Source: Carcharhinus longimanus (Eukaryota). Taken from it: a stretch of DNA of 64,000 nucleotides. The position numbers are program-made. The stretch is from positions 35,696,279 through 35,760,278 of the forward strand of contig JASCQW010000190.1 in NCBI GenBank assembly GCA_030264375.1, given 5' to 3'. How positions within the stretch are numbered: position 1 is the first letter of the stretch; every line of letters begins with the position of its first letter. Positions 30,001 to 39,000 of this stretch are shown here, piece by piece.

Positions 30001-33000
30001 TAGGTGGATTGGCCATGCTAAATTGCCTTAGTGTAGGTTAGGAGGATTTGCGATGTTAATAAATGGGTTATGGGACTAGGGCCTTGGTAGGGACCAAGTT
30101 GGCTGGGAAAGGCAAGTGGCATAACACTTCCAGGTGTCAAGCCCCATACCATGACTTTCCCAGCGTTCTCCTGTACAGCATTCCTCAGGTCAACACACCT
30201 TGCAGCTTCACACCTTCCTCTCACTGCAGACATCTCACATCCCCATCTGAACACTATAACTCACACTCACTCTTATCATGTTGCCCTCTCCACTTTGCAG
30301 AGAAGGGAGCATACAATTTCAGGAAAAATAGATGGGATGAGGACGGGGTGGAGGTTGCCCTCCAATGAAAAGTATCTTGAAAGCCAATGGCAAAGCTTAT
30401 GGAGCTTGGCCCCTGAAAATGTTATAGCACTCACTTTGATTTGATTTGATTTGGGTTATTATTGTCATACGTATTTACATACAGTGAAAAGTATTGTTTC
30501 TTGCAAGCTATAGAAATAAAACATACTGTTCATAGAGAAGAAAATGAGACAGTGCAGAATGTAGTGTTACAGTCATAGCTAGGATGTTGAGAAAGATCAA
30601 CTTAATGCAAGGCAAGTCCATTCAAAAGTCTGACAGCAGCAGGGAAGGAGCTGTTCTTGAGTCGGTTGGTAAGTGACCTCAGACTTTTGTATCTTTTTCC
30701 TGAAGGAAGAAGGTGGAAGGGAGAATGTCGGGGGTGCGTGGGATCCTTAATTATGCTGGCTACTTTGCCGAGGCAGTGGGAAGTGTAGACAGAGTCAATG
30801 GATGGGAGGCTGGTTTGCGTGATGGATTGGGCTACATTCACAAACATTTGTAGTTCCTTATGGTCTTGGGACAAAGCAGAAGCCACGCCAAGCTGTGATA
30901 CTATCAGAAAGAATGCTTTAGGAAAGGCATGAGAAACAGTTCAGAGAGATTTACTAGATTAATTCCAGGAATGCCTGGGTTGTCTTTTGAGGAAAGGTTG
31001 GACAGGTTAGGCTTATACCAACTGGAGTTTAGAAGAGTAAGGGATGACTTGATTGAAACCTTTAAGATCCTGAGGGGTCTTGACAGGGTGGAAAAGATGT
31101 TTTCTCTTGCAGGAGAATCTAGAATGAGGCGTCATGATTTAAAATAAGGGGTTTCTCATTTAAGACAGAGATGAGGAGAAATCTTTCCTCTCAGAAGGTC
31201 ATGAATCTTTGGAACACTTGTCCTCAAAAGGCAGTGGAAGCAAGACTTTGAATATTTTTAATAGAGGTGGATAGATTCTTGATTAACAAAGGGGTGAAAG
31301 GTTATTTGGGGTAGGCAAGAATGTGGATTGGAGGTTGTAATCAGATTAGCCATGATCTTATTGAATGGTGGAGTAGGTTCAAGGGGCTGAGGGTCTTACT
31401 ACTGCTCCTACTTTGCATGTCTGTATGTAACTTCAGAGTTTTTGTAATGGTCAGAGGAAATTCCGCTAAACATCTTTGTAAAGTTATTGAACATGTCCTA
31501 AGCCCAACTAGCAAGGGGTTTAATTGATATGTGGTTGAGGGAAAGGAGGTGCATGGAAGAGAAAGGGAAGAAGTATTTATTCATGTTACTACAGCCATTG
31601 TGCTGATACCAGGATAGCTTGGAGAACTGGTCCTTTCCTACCCATTACATTGGTTTGATTGTAATTAAATTCCAACTCACAGTAAGGCACAATTAAGCCA
31701 CAGTGTGATTCAGGGAGTGTGAACATCTTCTAGTGCGATGCTAAGGGACATGGAAAGGATAGTTAAAAAAGCAAATCAGATTTTTTAGACTATCTTGGAA
31801 AGTTGTACAATCCAAAATGTGAGAGTCAGCATTATAAATATTGCAGCTGTCAACTTTGGGGGCGACCCAGTGGCACAGTGGTTAATGCTGCTGCCTCACA
31901 GTGCCAGGGACCTGGGTTCGACTCCTGGCTTGGGTCACTGTCTGTGTGGTGTTTGCACATTCTCCCCATGTCTTCATGGGTTTCCTCTGGGTGCTGTAGT
32001 TTTCTCTCACAGTCCAAAGATTTGCAGGTTAGGTGAATTGGCCATACTAAATTCTCCCGCAATGTAGCTGATCAGGCGCTGGAGTATGGTGACTAGGGGA
32101 TTTTCACAGCAACTTCATTGCAGTGGAAATGTAAGCTGATTTGTGACTGATAAATTAGCTTTGTTTTTTGTGTAGTGGTACGTCGGAACAAGAAAGGCCC
32201 TGGCCTATGATTAGCTACACTCACTTTAAGATTGCTGGTTTTTGGCATGAACTAATGTTCATTCTCTTGGGTAATCATATCTCTTGCTTTAATCAGTTTG
32301 ATTACCAATACACCTTACACAACACTTGCAAAGTTACAGCAATTGGCTCCTTGTCACTCATCATTAATTTAGAAGATGTAAGGAATATTGGAATCTGTTG
32401 TTTATCAAATATGGAATGATATGGGTTGTCAGACTGAGTCTAGGTGATAAAAGTAACATTGGCTATTAGAAACAAGGCATGCCTTTAGGAGTGCGACACC
32501 AAAAACCTGATTATTAAAGAAGCAGAATATTTTTATTCTTAATATTCCAATCTTTCTCAGCCAAACTGCACCAAGTAGACCAGCCCTGAACACTGAAAGA
32601 TGAAAGCATGTAAATATGTAAAATTCATAATTATTGCCAGCTTTTAAAATATGTGAAGAACATTATAAAGTCACCAAAGCCCAAAGGACCTCCTTTGAGG
32701 GAGAGAGCTGTCAGATGATGATTTAACATGAGGATCACCACATCTGAGGTAAAGGGCAAGGTTGAACCTTCATGAGCAACTTCAGCCGGGAATTGAACCC
32801 ATGCTGTTGACATTGCTCTAAATCACTAACCAACTTTCTAGCCAATTGAGCTAAACTGATCAATGAAAATGATCAAATTACTGTTGTTTTACAATCAAAC
32901 TGGTATCATGGAATCATAGAATCCTACAGTGCAGAAAGAGGGCATTCAGCCCATTGTGTCTGCACTGACGACAATCCCACACAGGTCCTATCCCCATAAT

Positions 33001-36000: not shown

Positions 36001-39000
36001 TTATAACGCTGACTCTGTTGCATTTTGGATTGAATAGCTCTCCAAGATACTCTAAAAATCTGACTTGCATTCCAAAAAAATCTTTTCCATGTCCCTCAGC
36101 ACCGCACTAGAAGATGTTCACAGTCCCTGAATCACACTATGGCTTAATTGTGTCTTACTGTGAGTTGGAATTTAATTACGATCAAACCAATGTAATGGAT
36201 AGGAAAGGACCAGTTTTCCAATCAAGACACCACTATGGCTGGAGTATGATGAATAAAACTTGACAGAATAAGACATCACCTTTGCCTGTAATCTCCCTTT
36301 ACTGTACAGGGCCCATGTGTTGCACTGTGTGATGTTTTTAAGATTGCCTCACAGCCTCAAATGTATGCATCTTAAAGGGAATGCTGCTTGTCCCTTTTTT
36401 TTGCTGTAAAAAATCTATGATTCTTTAAAAGATATGGGAGTGACAGTCTACGAATTGCTCTTAAAGAGCACTGGTGCTGACATGATGGACCAAATGGCCT
36501 CCTTCTGTGCTGTTACCATTCTACGTTTTTTTCCTCCACCACATATTGCCAATTGTTCTGTGGCAACATACTCAAACAGCTTTGAGAAAATTTTGTTTGT
36601 AACCGTTCATTTTCAGTGCCAGAGAGGTTGATTGGCAATAGTTCACAGGTATCACATTGTTAAACATGTACTCAGTCTAGAACGGATAACACTCAACTCT
36701 CTGTGGCAGGTTTAGTTCATGAATTCATTCTCCACAACTGTAGCAACTTCATGCTGTTCAATGCATTTCAATGACGGGCCATGCAGTGAGATCCATTTCC
36801 AAGATGCTAATGGCAGAATGGTACAGCTTGGATAGCAACTTTCTAAATATTTGAATTTACCCACACATTTGGCCATTGCCTGAAGTTGCTGTGCCATTGA
36901 CAAATAGTTAATGGTGAGCTCCATTAGCTTCACTGTTATTTTGACAGAAAATATGGGCCATTATTAAAAGAACACTGTCATCCTATTCACAATATTAGCT
37001 GAGTTGAATTTATAATACAAAGTAGTGGTAACTGAAAACATAACTGTTATTTGAATATTTCAACCCACGATTACAGGGAATGTTGAATAGAAAACAAACA
37101 CATAAAGGACTCCGTGATGTGTACAGTCAGTGTACCATTGAGTTCTGCACGGATATGCATTCCTCATCTCCAGTATTTATACAATTAATATTTTTATGAT
37201 GCAGCATACCAAGCTTGCTCTCATATTTCAAGCATTGGTGCTGCTTCAAATTTTGTACCCATTGCTGGTCTAACAGCAGTTTCTTTCTTCTCTACATTAT
37301 TTTAATTTTTTTCCATTCTCTTGCTTCTGAAGGAAAAAAGCTCGACATTCAAGTTGTTCTGTTAAAATGAGAACTGTGTCTCTTTTTCCCAGATATAATA
37401 CTGGGGCATCAAGAAGGAAGCTAGTGATGTTTGCTGTTTCTGTAAATGGTCCTTCAGCCCAGCTTCATTCATCCGTGCATAAAGTGTCTAAAGTTGACAG
37501 TGTGGAAATTGGCTTGAATTGGATCCAACTTTCAATGAAGAACTTATTCTGTGCTGGGGGAGCACTGCATGCCCAAATTGGTTAGGCTGCCCTGGAGCTG
37601 TCCAGCACAATTACCTGAAACCAGTGCTGGACACATTCGGTGTGCAAATTCAGGGCTAAGTGTCATTTTTAGACTCCATTTCTATGTTGGATTGCAATTG
37701 AAAGCTAATAGCCGTCCGAGCATTGTAATCTGACAGTGTTCGGAGAGCAGCCGCAGCTGACAGCAAAGGCTCCATCGTGAAGGGATCCTACTGTTGGGTT
37801 CATGGAGTCAGCTGCTTTAGTTCAGGTTAGACAGAATGGCCTAACTGCCCTGGTCTTACTCCTCTTCCTGCTGTGCACCATTTTGTCCTGTAGACAGAGA
37901 GGGAATTGATGAGTATTTCAAAGGAGAAGGAGAGTGTAGATGTGTGGGACTTGAACTGTTTGTGCAGATGCTGAGAGGAGAAAGAAGCTGTAGGCAACCT
38001 GCAGGGAAAAATGACAAATTATTGATAATTGCGTGGAGTGTGAAGTGAGGAAAGGTCCATGAGAGAAGTTGGTTATTGTGTAAAGGCTAGCAAATGAAAG
38101 GAGAATGCTGCTACTGGCGGCTGTGAGAGGAGTAAAGAAAAGGAGGACTTTTTTCCCCTTACACTGACCTCTTCTAGTGGGATCTTCGGAAGGGGTGGAG
38201 GCAGGTGGGGGGGTGGGGGGGGGGGAGCTCAGAGATCCCCCAAGGGCATGTCTGTTACACATGATGACTCTATTTCTTTCTGCATCACTCCCACCCTATA
38301 TTTTAGAGGAGGGAATGCCACCTTACAGTAAGAAATGCATGCCACTTTAAACAGACTGACTGCCAGCAATTGTACTGCAGCTATAGTTCAGTGCAAAATG
38401 GGAAAACTGCTAAGGAGATTAGAATGAGGGAGGGAGATAATATTTCCTGGGTCTGCATCCATCTGTAGCATATGTGATTTGAATTGTCAGAAGGACTTGA
38501 TTTTCAACCTCACTGGGGTCGGGATCAGGAGCAAGCAGGGTGGCACAGTGTTTAGCACTCCTGCCTCACAGTGCCAGGGACCTGGGTTCAATTCTGGCTT
38601 TGGGTGACTGTGTGGAGAACATTTTTCCCGTGTCTGTATGGGTTTCCTCCGGCTGCTCCAGTTTCCTCCCACAGTCTAAAAATCCATGGGTTAGGTGGAT
38701 TGGCCATGTTAAATTTGCCCTTAGTGTCCCAAGCTGTGTAGGTTAAATGGATTAGCCATGGCTGAGTCTTCATGAACAACCTCAGGCTCAGTGACATCAA
38801 TGCTTCCTAACACCCTTATTGGTATGTGGCTATTATGCGAAACTAGGTATTTTTAGAAGATTATTTATTAGCCACAACTAGGCTTATGTTAACATTGCAA
38901 TGAAGTTACTGTGAAAACCTCTAGTTGCCACACTCTGGCGCCTGTTCTGACACAGCAAGGGAGAACTTAGCATGGTCAATGCACCTTAACCAGCATGTCT

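What the first reader, a model, noticed from the sequence alone, without database searches (positions are those of the whole stretch)
31572..36261. About 1-kb inverted duplication of mostly unique sequence around a 2.4-kb spacer
Seen: 35240-36261 is the colinear reverse complement of 31572-32862 once the SINE at 31859-32158 is removed. About 800 bp of each arm matches none of the TE families recognised here. Inference: if transcribed (for example inside an intron), it would form a very long dsRNA stem looping out 32863-35239. That would be a substrate for ADAR editing, endo-siRNA production, or splicing and circRNA control. At DNA level it could be an inversion hotspot or a duplicated enhancer pair.
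[Added by the scan's program, not by the reader: the finding's places include an assembly gap (unread letters, written N; its length is only estimated) at 33105 to 33114. Whether the letters on both sides are continuous or in frame is not known: test that first.]
Basis: partly seen in the sequence, partly recalled or inferred. Interest (0 to 1): 0.8.

Follow-up and report, generated by a model that had tools for sequence, protein, structure and literature searches.

The report
Ancient one-kilobase inverted segmental duplication
About 1 kb of non-coding, partly repeat-derived DNA was copied in reverse orientation 2.3 kb away long ago; this is a real but ordinary rearrangement, and its only unusual feature is two patches that have stayed far more alike than the rest.

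Summary
The inverted repeat is real. Window 31571-31858 plus 32159-32885 is the colinear reverse complement of 35217-36263, with blastn E=4e-83 and E=0. Identity is 86.9% without gaps and 81.8% with them. A 300-bp SINE (31859-32158, CTTTG target duplication) sits only in the left arm; the right arm keeps the empty site.

"Mostly unique" is overstated. About 34% of each arm is an older nested retroposon-like insert with the same 8-bp target duplication in both arms. That insert sits inside a 5'-truncated copy of another repeat. This shared nesting shows that one ancestral locus was copied at DNA level. It argues against two independent insertions or classical transposon ends. The right arm keeps the full repeat tail and the left arm stops inside it.

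No transposase, significant target duplication or further copy was found in the window. The assembly gap lies in a loop SINE whose two sides are colinear.

Two islands (141 and 320 bp) are about 94% identical, against 82% in the nested insert. I favour arm-to-arm gene conversion, but selection is not excluded.

A transcript would fold into about 890 arm-arm pairs. Transcription, editing, small RNAs and genome-wide copy number stayed unchecked. Interest is low.

The parts
31571..31858 (+). Left arm, outer part (pairs with 36261-35980)
   Evidence: blastn 83.8% over 291 columns, E=4e-83; alignment
31619..31759 (.). High-identity island 1, left copy (right copy 36081-36221)
   Evidence: 132 matches, 9 mismatches, 93.6%, K2P 0.068; coordinates mapped
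31859..32158 (+). Young SINE inserted only in the left arm; 5-bp target duplication CTTTG at 31854-31858 and 32159-32163
   Evidence: Family has 21 loci in the window. ARAGORN calls a tRNA-like head at 31864-31938. Empty site in the right arm. K2P to the 17-copy consensus is 0.111, or 0.101 without CpG
32159..32885 (+). Left arm, inner part (pairs with 35984-35217); weak homology may run to 32903
   Evidence: blastn 81.8% over 771 columns, E=0
32190..32509 (.). High-identity island 2, left copy (right copy 35633-35951); 32226-32405 is about 98% identical
   Evidence: 302 matches, 17 mismatches, 94.7%, K2P 0.056. The best 300-column window is 95%, reached by 0 of 2000 permutations. A 1-bp indel at 32330 breaks any shared reading frame
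32511..32852 (-). Nested older retroposon-like insert ('SINE-X'), left copy, flanked by AAACCTGA (32503-32510) and AAACTGA (32853-32859)
   Evidence: Between the arms: 279 matches, 61 mismatches, K2P 0.21
32853..32903 (+). Start of the 3' tail of repeat 'Y' in the left arm; the left arm ends here, inside that repeat
   Evidence: Alignment. No continuation after the loop SINE: score 26 against a null mean of 25.5, and 226 of 500 shuffles reach it
32886..35216 (.). Spacer (loop), 2331 bp. It holds SINE copies at 32904-33219 (-, containing the N gap 33105-33114) and 34645-35021 (-), and 33220-34644, which has no match in the window
   Evidence: No Pfam family above its cut-off in ORFs of this stretch
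35062..35251 (-). Complete 3' tail of the 5'-truncated repeat 'Y' next to and inside the right arm; only 35217-35251 is shared with the left arm
   Evidence: Smith-Waterman score 117 against the in-window reference copy 16328-16142. nhmmer hits at 16161-16323 (E=1.3e-10) and 21868-21958 (E=1.3e-6)
35252..35631 (+). Nested insert 'SINE-X', right copy, 380 bp, flanked by a perfect 8-bp target duplication TCAGGTTT at 35244-35251 and 35632-35639
   Evidence: With the insert and one duplicate removed, the alignment to the reference Y copy runs straight across the junction
35217..36263 (-). Right arm, the more complete and probably parental copy

Best explanation
This is an old, local, DNA-level inverted segmental duplication in non-coding, repeat-rich DNA.

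Order of events. A 5'-truncated copy of repeat Y landed next to about 0.6 kb of non-repeat sequence. A 380-bp retroposon-like element (SINE-X) then inserted into Y and made an 8-bp target duplication. About 1 kb of this composite was then copied in reverse orientation roughly 2 kb away. The mechanism was most likely replication template switching or a fold-back type of break repair; this is inferred. The right arm is the more complete copy and probably the parental one. Later a 300-bp SINE inserted into the left arm.

Divergence. Most of the arms have since drifted apart at the neutral rate, to about 82% identity. Two patches of 141 and 320 bp stayed about 94% identical. I attribute this mainly to arm-to-arm gene conversion bounded by indels and by the SINE insertion; this is also inferred.

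Function. I see no evidence that the structure has a function today. If it lies in a transcribed region it would fold into a long imperfect hairpin as a by-product.
For: Shown. (1) The arms are colinear and highly significant. (2) Both arms carry the same nested insert at the same site with the same target duplication: TCAGGTTT twice in the right arm, AAACCTGA and AAACTGA in the left. In both, the insert interrupts the same repeat Y. So both arms descend from one already-composite locus. (3) The right arm's Y tail continues to about 35062, aligned to the reference copy's 3' end (score 117). The left arm stops about 50 nt into the tail and does not resume after the loop SINE (226 of 500 shuffles reach the score). 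The duplication boundary is therefore not a mobile-element end. (4) The 300-bp SINE with a CTTTG duplication is in one arm only, and the other arm has the empty site. (5) There is no other arm copy in the window at word size 7, E<=1. None of the 80 ORFs in 30.5-37.5 kb reaches a Pfam cut-off. There is no target duplication beyond chance for the whole unit or for either arm: the best is 7-8 bp with 1 mismatch, while 123 of 300 random position pairs reach 7 bp or more. (6) The internal clocks agree. The nested insert has K2P 0.21 between the arms. The left-arm SINE is 0.10-0.11 from its consensus. Both point to about 0.1 substitutions per site per lineage since the duplication. (7) The islands have 26 mismatches in 460 sites, against 61 in 340 in the nested insert (Fisher p=6e-8). 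An unbiased scan gives 0 of 2000 permutations reaching the best window. Non-island, non-repeat arm sequence does not differ from the insert (p=0.40). (8) The island edges coincide with a 7-bp indel, an 18-bp indel and the neighbourhood of the SINE insertion. About 36 nt of probably Y-derived sequence next to island 2 is 34/36 identical, while Y-derived sequence on the other side of the insert is 25/33. This fits a conversion tract better than an ancient functional element. (9) The spacer size is within the 766-70,466 bp range (median 3,428 bp) reported for fold-back inverted duplications (PMC3907307, passages read).
Against: Copy number in the rest of the genome and the orthologous loci could not be examined, because no eukaryotic genome collection was available. 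A low-copy composite element is therefore not excluded.

The islands show no GC enrichment (37-42% GC, against 30-49% elsewhere; W-to-S 10 v S-to-W 12). The usual signature of GC-biased conversion is thus absent.

The two islands have similar divergence but are separated by neutral-looking sequence. This needs two conversion tracts of similar age, or selection.

The Y-derivation of 32474-32509 rests on a weak alignment that adds only 9 score points.

The tRNA origin of the nested insert is by eye only. Rfam finds no tRNA match even when given only 111 bases, and ARAGORN finds none. It has no second copy in the window.

A sub-threshold Pfam match to a transposase zinc-binding domain (Zn_Tnp_IS91, E=0.0091, 16.4 bits against a cut-off of 26.3) lies at 35048-35287. 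With 80 queries this is about what chance gives.

The join across the gap at 33105-33114 rests on a high-copy SINE.

No junction microhomology could be read after this much divergence, so the mechanism of duplication is inference only.
Confidence: 0.6

Rival explanations
1. The structural origin is the same, but the two high-identity islands are kept alike by purifying selection on both copies. On this view they are a mirrored pair of cis-regulatory modules or conserved non-coding elements.
For: Islands of 141 and 320 bp sit at K2P 0.06 in a background of 0.21-0.25. Both islands have similar divergence although neutral-looking sequence lies between them. There is no GC-biased-conversion signature. 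Only one 1-bp indel occurs in 460 bp, against 15 indel events in the rest. The islands lie almost wholly in the non-repeat part of the arm.
Against: No cross-species comparison was possible. High identity runs on into about 36 nt that look repeat-derived (34/36). The island edges coincide with heterologies, as conversion tracts do. There is no RNA family match, no stable local fold (z from -1.7 to +1.1), and no protein homologue of the 86-aa ORF. No developmental gene or any exon was recognised in the window.
Confidence: 0.2
2. It is a functional long-hairpin RNA locus. The region is transcribed and the 1-kb stem is used as an ADAR substrate, an endo-siRNA source, or a splicing or circRNA control element.
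For: The predicted fold of 31571-36263 has 890 arm-arm pairs on the plus RNA (-2079 kcal/mol, longest helix 80 bp) and 899 on the minus RNA (-2097 kcal/mol, longest helix 60 bp). With the right arm flipped it has 35 arm-arm pairs (-1380 kcal/mol). The islands give 320 bp of about 95% complementary stem.
Against: Any inverted repeat folds this way, so the fold adds nothing beyond the repeat itself. Transitions that would keep G.U pairs are balanced between the strands (38 v 42, p=0.74; in the islands 11 v 10). No exon, gene or RNA family was found in 64 kb. Most of the stem has been allowed to decay to 78-86% with 16 indel events.
Confidence: 0.07
3. The arms are two insertions of one composite retroposon, or both are copies of a third locus elsewhere in the genome, that happen to lie head to head 2.3 kb apart.
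For: Each arm contains retroposon parts, and the right copy ends at a proper repeat 3' end. Genome-wide copy number is unknown.
Against: The left copy lacks the last 130-150 nt of the 3' tail, which target-primed reverse transcription always copies first. No target duplication was found around either arm. No further copy lies in a window that holds 21 copies of the common SINE. Both copies share the same outer end. Neutral independent copies would not show identity islands unless conversion is also invoked.
Confidence: 0.07
4. The arms are the terminal inverted repeats of one large, decayed DNA transposon or foldback element spanning 31571-36263.
For: The geometry fits: 1-kb inverted ends around a 2.3-kb interior. 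There is a sub-threshold Zn_Tnp_IS91 match at 35048-35287 (E=0.0091, below the cut-off).
Against: No transposase or other domain reaches a cut-off in 80 ORFs. No target duplication beyond chance was found. No related ends occur elsewhere in the window. Both 'ends' contain the same nested retroposon with its own target duplication inside a truncated second repeat, which transposon ends would not carry. The weak match lies in that repeat-derived stretch.
Confidence: 0.04
5. It is an assembly artefact. The two contigs joined at the gap 33105-33114 are misplaced or misoriented, so the inverted arrangement or the spacing is not real.
For: An N gap of estimated length separates the arms. It sits in a high-copy SINE, where misjoins typically occur.
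Against: Both sides of the gap are colinear, same-strand parts of one SINE, with a modal implied loss of 17 nt (7 of 13 pairings; one spanning alignment). The arms differ by 13-18%, 16 indel events and a private SINE. They are therefore two real loci, not a haplotype or chimeric-read duplicate.
Confidence: 0.05

Closest known systems
Palindromes and long inverted repeats kept alike by arm-to-arm gene conversion. Examples: primate X and Y palindromes (PMC8327919, PMC3723533, PMC8981503, PMC8600007; search listing and abstract starts only) and C. elegans inverted repeats (PMC1803023; abstract and outline).
   Same: Two inverted arms around a unique spacer, with patches of arm identity well above the neutral expectation.
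   Different: Those arms are kilobases to megabases long, more than 99% identical and usually carry genes. Here the arms are 1 kb, 82-87% identical overall and non-coding. Only 460 bp is elevated, and to 94%, not 99%. No GC bias is seen. Concerted evolution across species could not be tested.
Fold-back or template-switch inverted duplications with a single-copy spacer (PMC3907307, passages read). FoSTeS and MMBIR models are recalled, not read.
   Same: The layout is parental copy, single-copy spacer, inverted copy. The 2.3-kb spacer is within the reported 766-70,466 bp range (median 3,428 bp).
   Different: The reported cases are megabase terminal duplications with deletions in patients. This is a 1-kb interstitial copy that needs a second switch back. 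Junction microhomology can no longer be read.
Inverted repeat pairs as dsRNA sources, such as inverted Alu pairs edited by ADAR and hairpin-RNA endo-siRNA loci of flies and mouse oocytes. This is recalled general knowledge. PMC9989829 was seen only in the search listing.
   Same: A long intramolecular stem is predicted on either strand.
   Different: The stem here is mostly not made of a dispersed repeat family. Transcription, editing and small RNAs are all untested. There is no strand-specific preservation of pairing.
DNA transposons with long terminal inverted repeats and Foldback elements (recalled).
   Same: Long inverted ends around a short interior.
   Different: No transposase, no target duplication and no other copies in the window. 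The ends contain a nested retroposon and a truncated second repeat.

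Membership tests
Local inverted segmental duplication (DNA-level copy of one locus) | Two colinear copies in opposite orientation, significant beyond chance | tested here: met
   E=0 and 4e-83; 869 matches in 1000 aligned sites
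Local inverted segmental duplication (DNA-level copy of one locus) | The copies share pre-existing nested insertions at identical sites, and the boundaries are not mobile-element ends | tested here: met
   Same nested insert and 8-bp target duplication in both arms. It interrupts repeat Y in both. The left arm ends inside the Y tail
Local inverted segmental duplication (DNA-level copy of one locus) | Only two copies in the genome | not testable with these tools
   Only the 64-kb window could be searched, and it holds no third copy. No eukaryotic genome collection was on hand
DNA transposon with terminal inverted repeats | Target-site duplication flanking the whole unit | tested here: not met
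   Best is 7 bp with 1 mismatch; 123 of 300 random position pairs reach 7 bp or more. Age could have erased one
DNA transposon with terminal inverted repeats | Transposase coding remnant between the ends | tested here: not met
   0 of 80 ORFs (at least 40 aa, 30.5-37.5 kb) reach a Pfam cut-off. The best is Zn_Tnp_IS91 at 16.4 bits against a cut-off of 26.3
DNA transposon with terminal inverted repeats | Other copies or related ends elsewhere | tested here: inconclusive
   None in the window; the genome was not searchable
Retroposon (SINE/LINE-type) copy pair | Each copy keeps the element's 3' end and has its own target duplication | tested here: not met
   The left copy lacks the distal Y tail. 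No target duplication around either arm beyond chance
Palindrome with arm-to-arm gene conversion | Tracts of arm identity significantly above the neutral level of the same arms | tested here: met
   26/460 v 61/340 mismatches, p=6e-8; 0 of 2000 permutations
Palindrome with arm-to-arm gene conversion | Near-identity (above 99%) of the arms and GC-biased substitution pattern | tested here: not met
   Overall 86.9%, islands about 94%; no GC excess
Palindrome with arm-to-arm gene conversion | Concerted evolution: arms group by species | not testable with these tools
   No orthologous sequences available
Hairpin-RNA, ADAR-substrate or circRNA-flanking inverted repeat | Long intramolecular duplex predicted | tested here: met
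   890 and 899 arm-arm pairs; 35 in the flipped control. This follows from the repeat itself
Hairpin-RNA, ADAR-substrate or circRNA-flanking inverted repeat | Transcription through both arms; A-to-G clusters, small RNAs or back-splice junctions | not testable with these tools
   No expression data. No gene or exon recognised in the window
Hairpin-RNA, ADAR-substrate or circRNA-flanking inverted repeat | Substitutions biased to preserve pairing on the transcribed strand | tested here: not met
   38 v 42 transitions, p=0.74
tRNA-derived SINE (for the nested insert 35252-35631) | Insertion with target-site duplication | tested here: met
   Perfect 8-bp TCAGGTTT on both sides. The reference Y copy is uninterrupted at that point
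tRNA-derived SINE (for the nested insert 35252-35631) | tRNA-related head recognised by a tRNA model | tested here: not met
   No tRNA match from Rfam on 35235-35345 at E<=10 or from ARAGORN. Only about 40-nt weak matches to heads of the common SINE (E=0.01-0.5). The resemblance is by eye
tRNA-derived SINE (for the nested insert 35252-35631) | Dispersed family of copies | tested here: inconclusive
   No other copy in the window; the genome was not searchable

The most novel reading that the evidence does not exclude
The two islands (31619-31759 / 36081-36221 and 32190-32509 / 35633-35951) are functional and are kept alike by selection in both arms. They would be either a mirrored pair of regulatory modules, or the core stem of a long hairpin RNA that feeds an editing or endo-siRNA pathway in a slowly evolving vertebrate lineage. 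The neutral decay of the rest of the arms would then mark exactly which 460 bp matter.
Probability: 0.1. Interest if true: 0.55.

Novelty: new member of a known kind. Interest (0 to 1): 0.2.

Why it matters
As it stands, this is one more small, old inverted segmental duplication in repeat-rich non-coding DNA, so it matters little.

It is a neat worked example of a method. Nested repeats give both the order of events and an internal neutral yardstick. That yardstick exposes two patches evolving about 3.5 times more slowly than the rest. If cross-species data showed those patches to be selected rather than converted, the locus would be a rare case of a locally mirrored regulatory or hairpin element in this lineage.

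I do not take the window for human.

Tried and rejected
Coding potential.
- Pfam on 80 ORFs of at least 40 aa in 30.5-37.5 kb found nothing above a cut-off.
- Pfam on 131 ORFs of at least 75 aa elsewhere found nothing above a cut-off.
- Of the 329 ORFs of 50-74 aa elsewhere, 300 were scanned. The 29 left out lie between 20605 and 25044. Only RT_RNaseH fragments at 51794-52178 scored.
- The search for homologous proteins with the 86-aa ORF 32159-32416 found no candidate (near lengths only).
- A 1-bp indel at 32330 rules out a shared exon.

RNA.
- Rfam at E<=1 on 30-38 kb gave only a non-significant lncRNA match (E=0.19) that lies in a dispersed repeat.
- Rfam at gathering level on the whole window gave 0 matches.
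- The islands do not fold better than shuffles.
- The tRNA origin of the nested insert is not confirmed.

Other tests.
- No inverted or direct homology between the flanks, or between loop and flanks, apart from dispersed SINEs and one old direct repeat.
- No continuation of the left arm beyond the loop SINE.
- The non-repeat part of the arm is not the 5' part of repeat Y: 58 of 200 and 13 of 200 shuffles reach the observed scores.
- Tandem repeats: nothing relevant.
- The paper search for inverted duplication + shark + SINE gave 8 papers, none relevant by title or abstract. The search for shark SINE families gave nothing I used. The listing for duplicated conserved non-coding elements was not read further.

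Not done.
- Bacterial, phage and plasmid collections were not searched, because they cannot hold this locus.
- Supplements of papers were not consulted.

Full report
**Observation.** The inverted repeat exists at the stated place. The repeat finder lists six colinear ungapped arm-arm blocks of 66-184 nt at 78-94% complementarity. blastn of 30501-37500 against the whole window pairs 31571-31858 with 36261-35980 (83.8% over 291 columns, E=4e-83). It pairs 32159-32885 with 35984-35217 (81.8% over 771 columns, E=0). A global alignment with the left-arm SINE taken out has 869 matches, 131 mismatches (80 transitions, 51 transversions) and 62 gap columns in 16 events. That is 86.9% identity without gaps, 81.8% with gaps, and K2P 0.145. 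The spacer is 32886-35216, 2331 bp.

The 300-bp SINE at 31859-32158 belongs to a family with 21 loci in the window. It has a tRNA-like head by ARAGORN. It is flanked by CTTTG at 31854-31858 and 32159-32163, and the right arm has the uninterrupted site. It therefore entered after the duplication.

**The gap.** The N run 33105-33114 is in the spacer, inside another copy of that SINE family. One blastn alignment to the copy at 54560-54851 spans it. I searched the two sides separately and got 20 and 17 hits. I kept pairings on the same copy and strand with the subject ends -30 to 150 bp apart, which left 13. The implied missing length was 17 nt in 7 of them, with a range of -20 to 69.

The sides are thus consistent with one SINE and a short gap, which supports the assembled order and orientation of the two arms. 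Because the SINE is high-copy, this is support and not proof. No reading frame is at stake.

**What the arms are made of.** While reading the spacer I noticed repeat-like sequence next to the right arm and followed it up.

- The stretch 35062-35251, read on the minus strand, aligns to the 3' end of a repeat copy elsewhere in the window, at 16328-16142. The Smith-Waterman score is 117. nhmmer gives E=1.3e-10 there and E=1.3e-6 at 21868-21958. I call this repeat Y.
- In the right arm, the homology to Y is interrupted by a 380-bp block, 35252-35631. A perfect 8-bp direct repeat, TCAGGTTT, flanks it at 35244-35251 and 35632-35639.
- With the block and one repeat copy removed, the alignment to the reference Y copy runs straight through the junction.
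- The left arm has the same block in the same place (32511-32852), with AAACCTGA and AAACTGA on its sides.

By eye the block begins with a tRNA-like head. Neither Rfam, even when given only 111 bases, nor ARAGORN confirms this, and there is no other copy in the window. So "SINE" is only a likely label for it. I also recall Y and this block as resembling common shark repeats; that is memory, not a test.

The part of the arms outside these repeats does not match the 5' part of Y: 58 of 200 and 13 of 200 shuffles reach the observed scores. It matches nothing else in the window. About 600-640 bp per arm, not about 800 bp, is therefore free of recognisable repeats.

**What this says about origin.** Two independent insertions cannot produce the same nested insert, the same target duplication and the same junction with a truncated Y. 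Both arms must descend from one locus that was already composite.

The copy boundary is not a mobile-element end. The right arm's Y tail runs on to its 3' end near 35062. The left arm stops about 50 nt into the tail, at the edge of a loop SINE, and does not resume after it (score 26 against a null mean of 25.5; 226 of 500 shuffles reach it). A retroposed copy would have kept the 3' end.

For a transposon with inverted ends I found none of the expected features:
- No Pfam family above its cut-off in 80 ORFs. The best is a transposase zinc-binding domain at 16.4 bits against a cut-off of 26.3, E=0.0091, at 35048-35287. Among 80 queries this is about what chance gives.
- No target duplication beyond chance: 123 of 300 random position pairs do as well.
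- No related ends elsewhere in the window.

The arms' divergence, 16 indel events and a private SINE exclude a haplotype or chimeric-read duplicate.

I conclude that this is a DNA-level local inverted duplication and that the right arm is the more complete, probably parental, copy. The mechanism is inferred: template switching during replication, or fold-back repair with a second switch. Spacers of 766-70,466 bp (median 3,428 bp) are reported for human fold-back inverted duplications (PMC3907307, passages read). Those events are far larger and terminal.

**Timing.** The nested insert differs between the arms at 61 of 340 sites, K2P 0.21. The left-arm SINE is 0.111 from a consensus of 17 window copies, or 0.101 without CpG sites. 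Both clocks give about 0.1 substitutions per site per lineage since the duplication, consistent with the inferred order of events. I give no absolute age because I have no measured rate for this genome.

**The one unusual feature.** Identity is not uniform.

| Segment | Matches / mismatches | Identity or K2P |
|---|---|---|
| Island 1, 31619-31759 | 132 / 9 | 93.6% |
| Island 2, 32190-32509 | 302 / 17 | 94.7% (about 98% over 32226-32405) |
| Both islands | 434 / 26 | K2P 0.059 |
| Nested insert | 279 / 61 | K2P 0.21 |
| Non-repeat, non-island arm | 129 / 35 | K2P 0.25 |

The islands differ from the nested insert (Fisher p=6e-8), while the non-island remainder does not (p=0.40). In a scan that does not use my segment choice, the best 300-column window (95%) is reached by 0 of 2000 permutations.

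The islands are not a shared exon, because a 1-bp indel lies at 32330 and the 86-aa ORF has no protein relative. They are not a known RNA family and not stably folded on their own (z from -1.7 to +1.1).

Two explanations remain: gene conversion between the arms, and selection on both copies. I lean towards conversion for two reasons.
- The island edges coincide with a 7-bp indel, an 18-bp indel and the neighbourhood of the SINE insertion.
- High identity continues into 36 nt that look Y-derived (34/36), while Y-derived sequence across the insert is 25/33.

There is evidence against conversion as well.
- There is no GC enrichment.
- Two separate tracts of similar age are needed.
- The Y-derivation of those 36 nt is weakly supported.

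Only cross-species data can settle this.

- *Hairpin RNA.* A transcript of 31571-36263 is predicted to pair the arms. The plus RNA has 890 arm-arm pairs, -2079 kcal/mol and a longest helix of 80 bp. The minus RNA has 899 pairs, -2097 kcal/mol and a longest helix of 60 bp. With the right arm flipped there are 35 pairs and -1380 kcal/mol. This restates the inverted repeat and is not independent evidence. I could not show transcription. No exon, gene or RNA family was recognised anywhere in the window, so whether the region is intronic is unknown. Transitions that would be tolerated as G.U pairs are evenly split between the two possible transcripts (38 v 42), so there is no sign that pairing has been preserved on either strand.
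- *Inversion hotspot.* The longest perfect identity is 60 bp. This is well below the lengths I recall as needed for efficient homologous exchange in vertebrates.
- *Duplicated enhancers.* This remains possible for the islands only.

**Comparison and verdict.** The closest known things are small palindromic segmental duplications with patchy arm-to-arm conversion. Primate sex-chromosome palindromes were seen in the search listing only. The C. elegans inverted repeats of PMC1803023 were seen as abstract and outline. This locus differs in being short, non-coding and mostly decayed. It is an ordinary member of a known kind.

**What stayed unchecked.**
- Copy number in the genome.
- Orthologous loci.
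- Any expression data.
- Long-read support for the assembly.
- The taxon itself.

Noticed in passing
window 51794-52178 (+): Two adjacent short ORFs match reverse-transcriptase RNase H domains above cut-off: RT_RNaseH_2 at E=1.7e-11 and RT_RNaseH at E=3.7e-7. This looks like a decayed LTR-retrotransposon pol fragment.
   Followed up: no
window 30529-30896; copies at 9551-9906 and 43376-43726: A dispersed repeat of about 360 bp lies just left of the left arm (78-83% identity between copies). The only Rfam match in 30-38 kb (DLG2-AS1_2, 20.4 bits against a gathering score of 70, E=0.19, at 30682-30941) falls largely (30682-30896) within this repeat and is probably chance.
   Followed up: partly
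window 16142-16617 (-) and 21868-21958: These are copies of the repeat I call Y. The first is long enough to serve as a reference for the truncated copy inside the arms.
   Followed up: partly
window 31141-31359 and 39703-39924: An old direct repeat (66% over 226 columns, E=8.5e-20), probably two copies of another decayed element. It is unrelated to the arms.
   Followed up: no
whole window: The common SINE family has 21 loci in 64 kb, with a median K2P to its consensus of 0.135. Copies differ in their 3' parts, which suggests subfamilies.
   Followed up: partly
window 1327-1426, 33105-33114, 40689-40788, 46131-46315, 56528-56537, 60469-60478, 61082-61091, 62424-62523: There are eight N runs, 525 N in all, so the window is a scaffold of at least nine contigs. 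Only the run in the spacer was examined.
   Followed up: partly
whole window: No host exon or protein domain was recognised by Pfam. The ORFs scanned were 80 in the region (at least 40 aa), 131 of at least 75 aa elsewhere, and 300 of the 329 of 50-74 aa elsewhere. A sub-threshold WD40_2 match (E=0.0034, 16.6 bits against a cut-off of 22.5) lies at 7990-8292. The gene context is unknown.
   Followed up: partly
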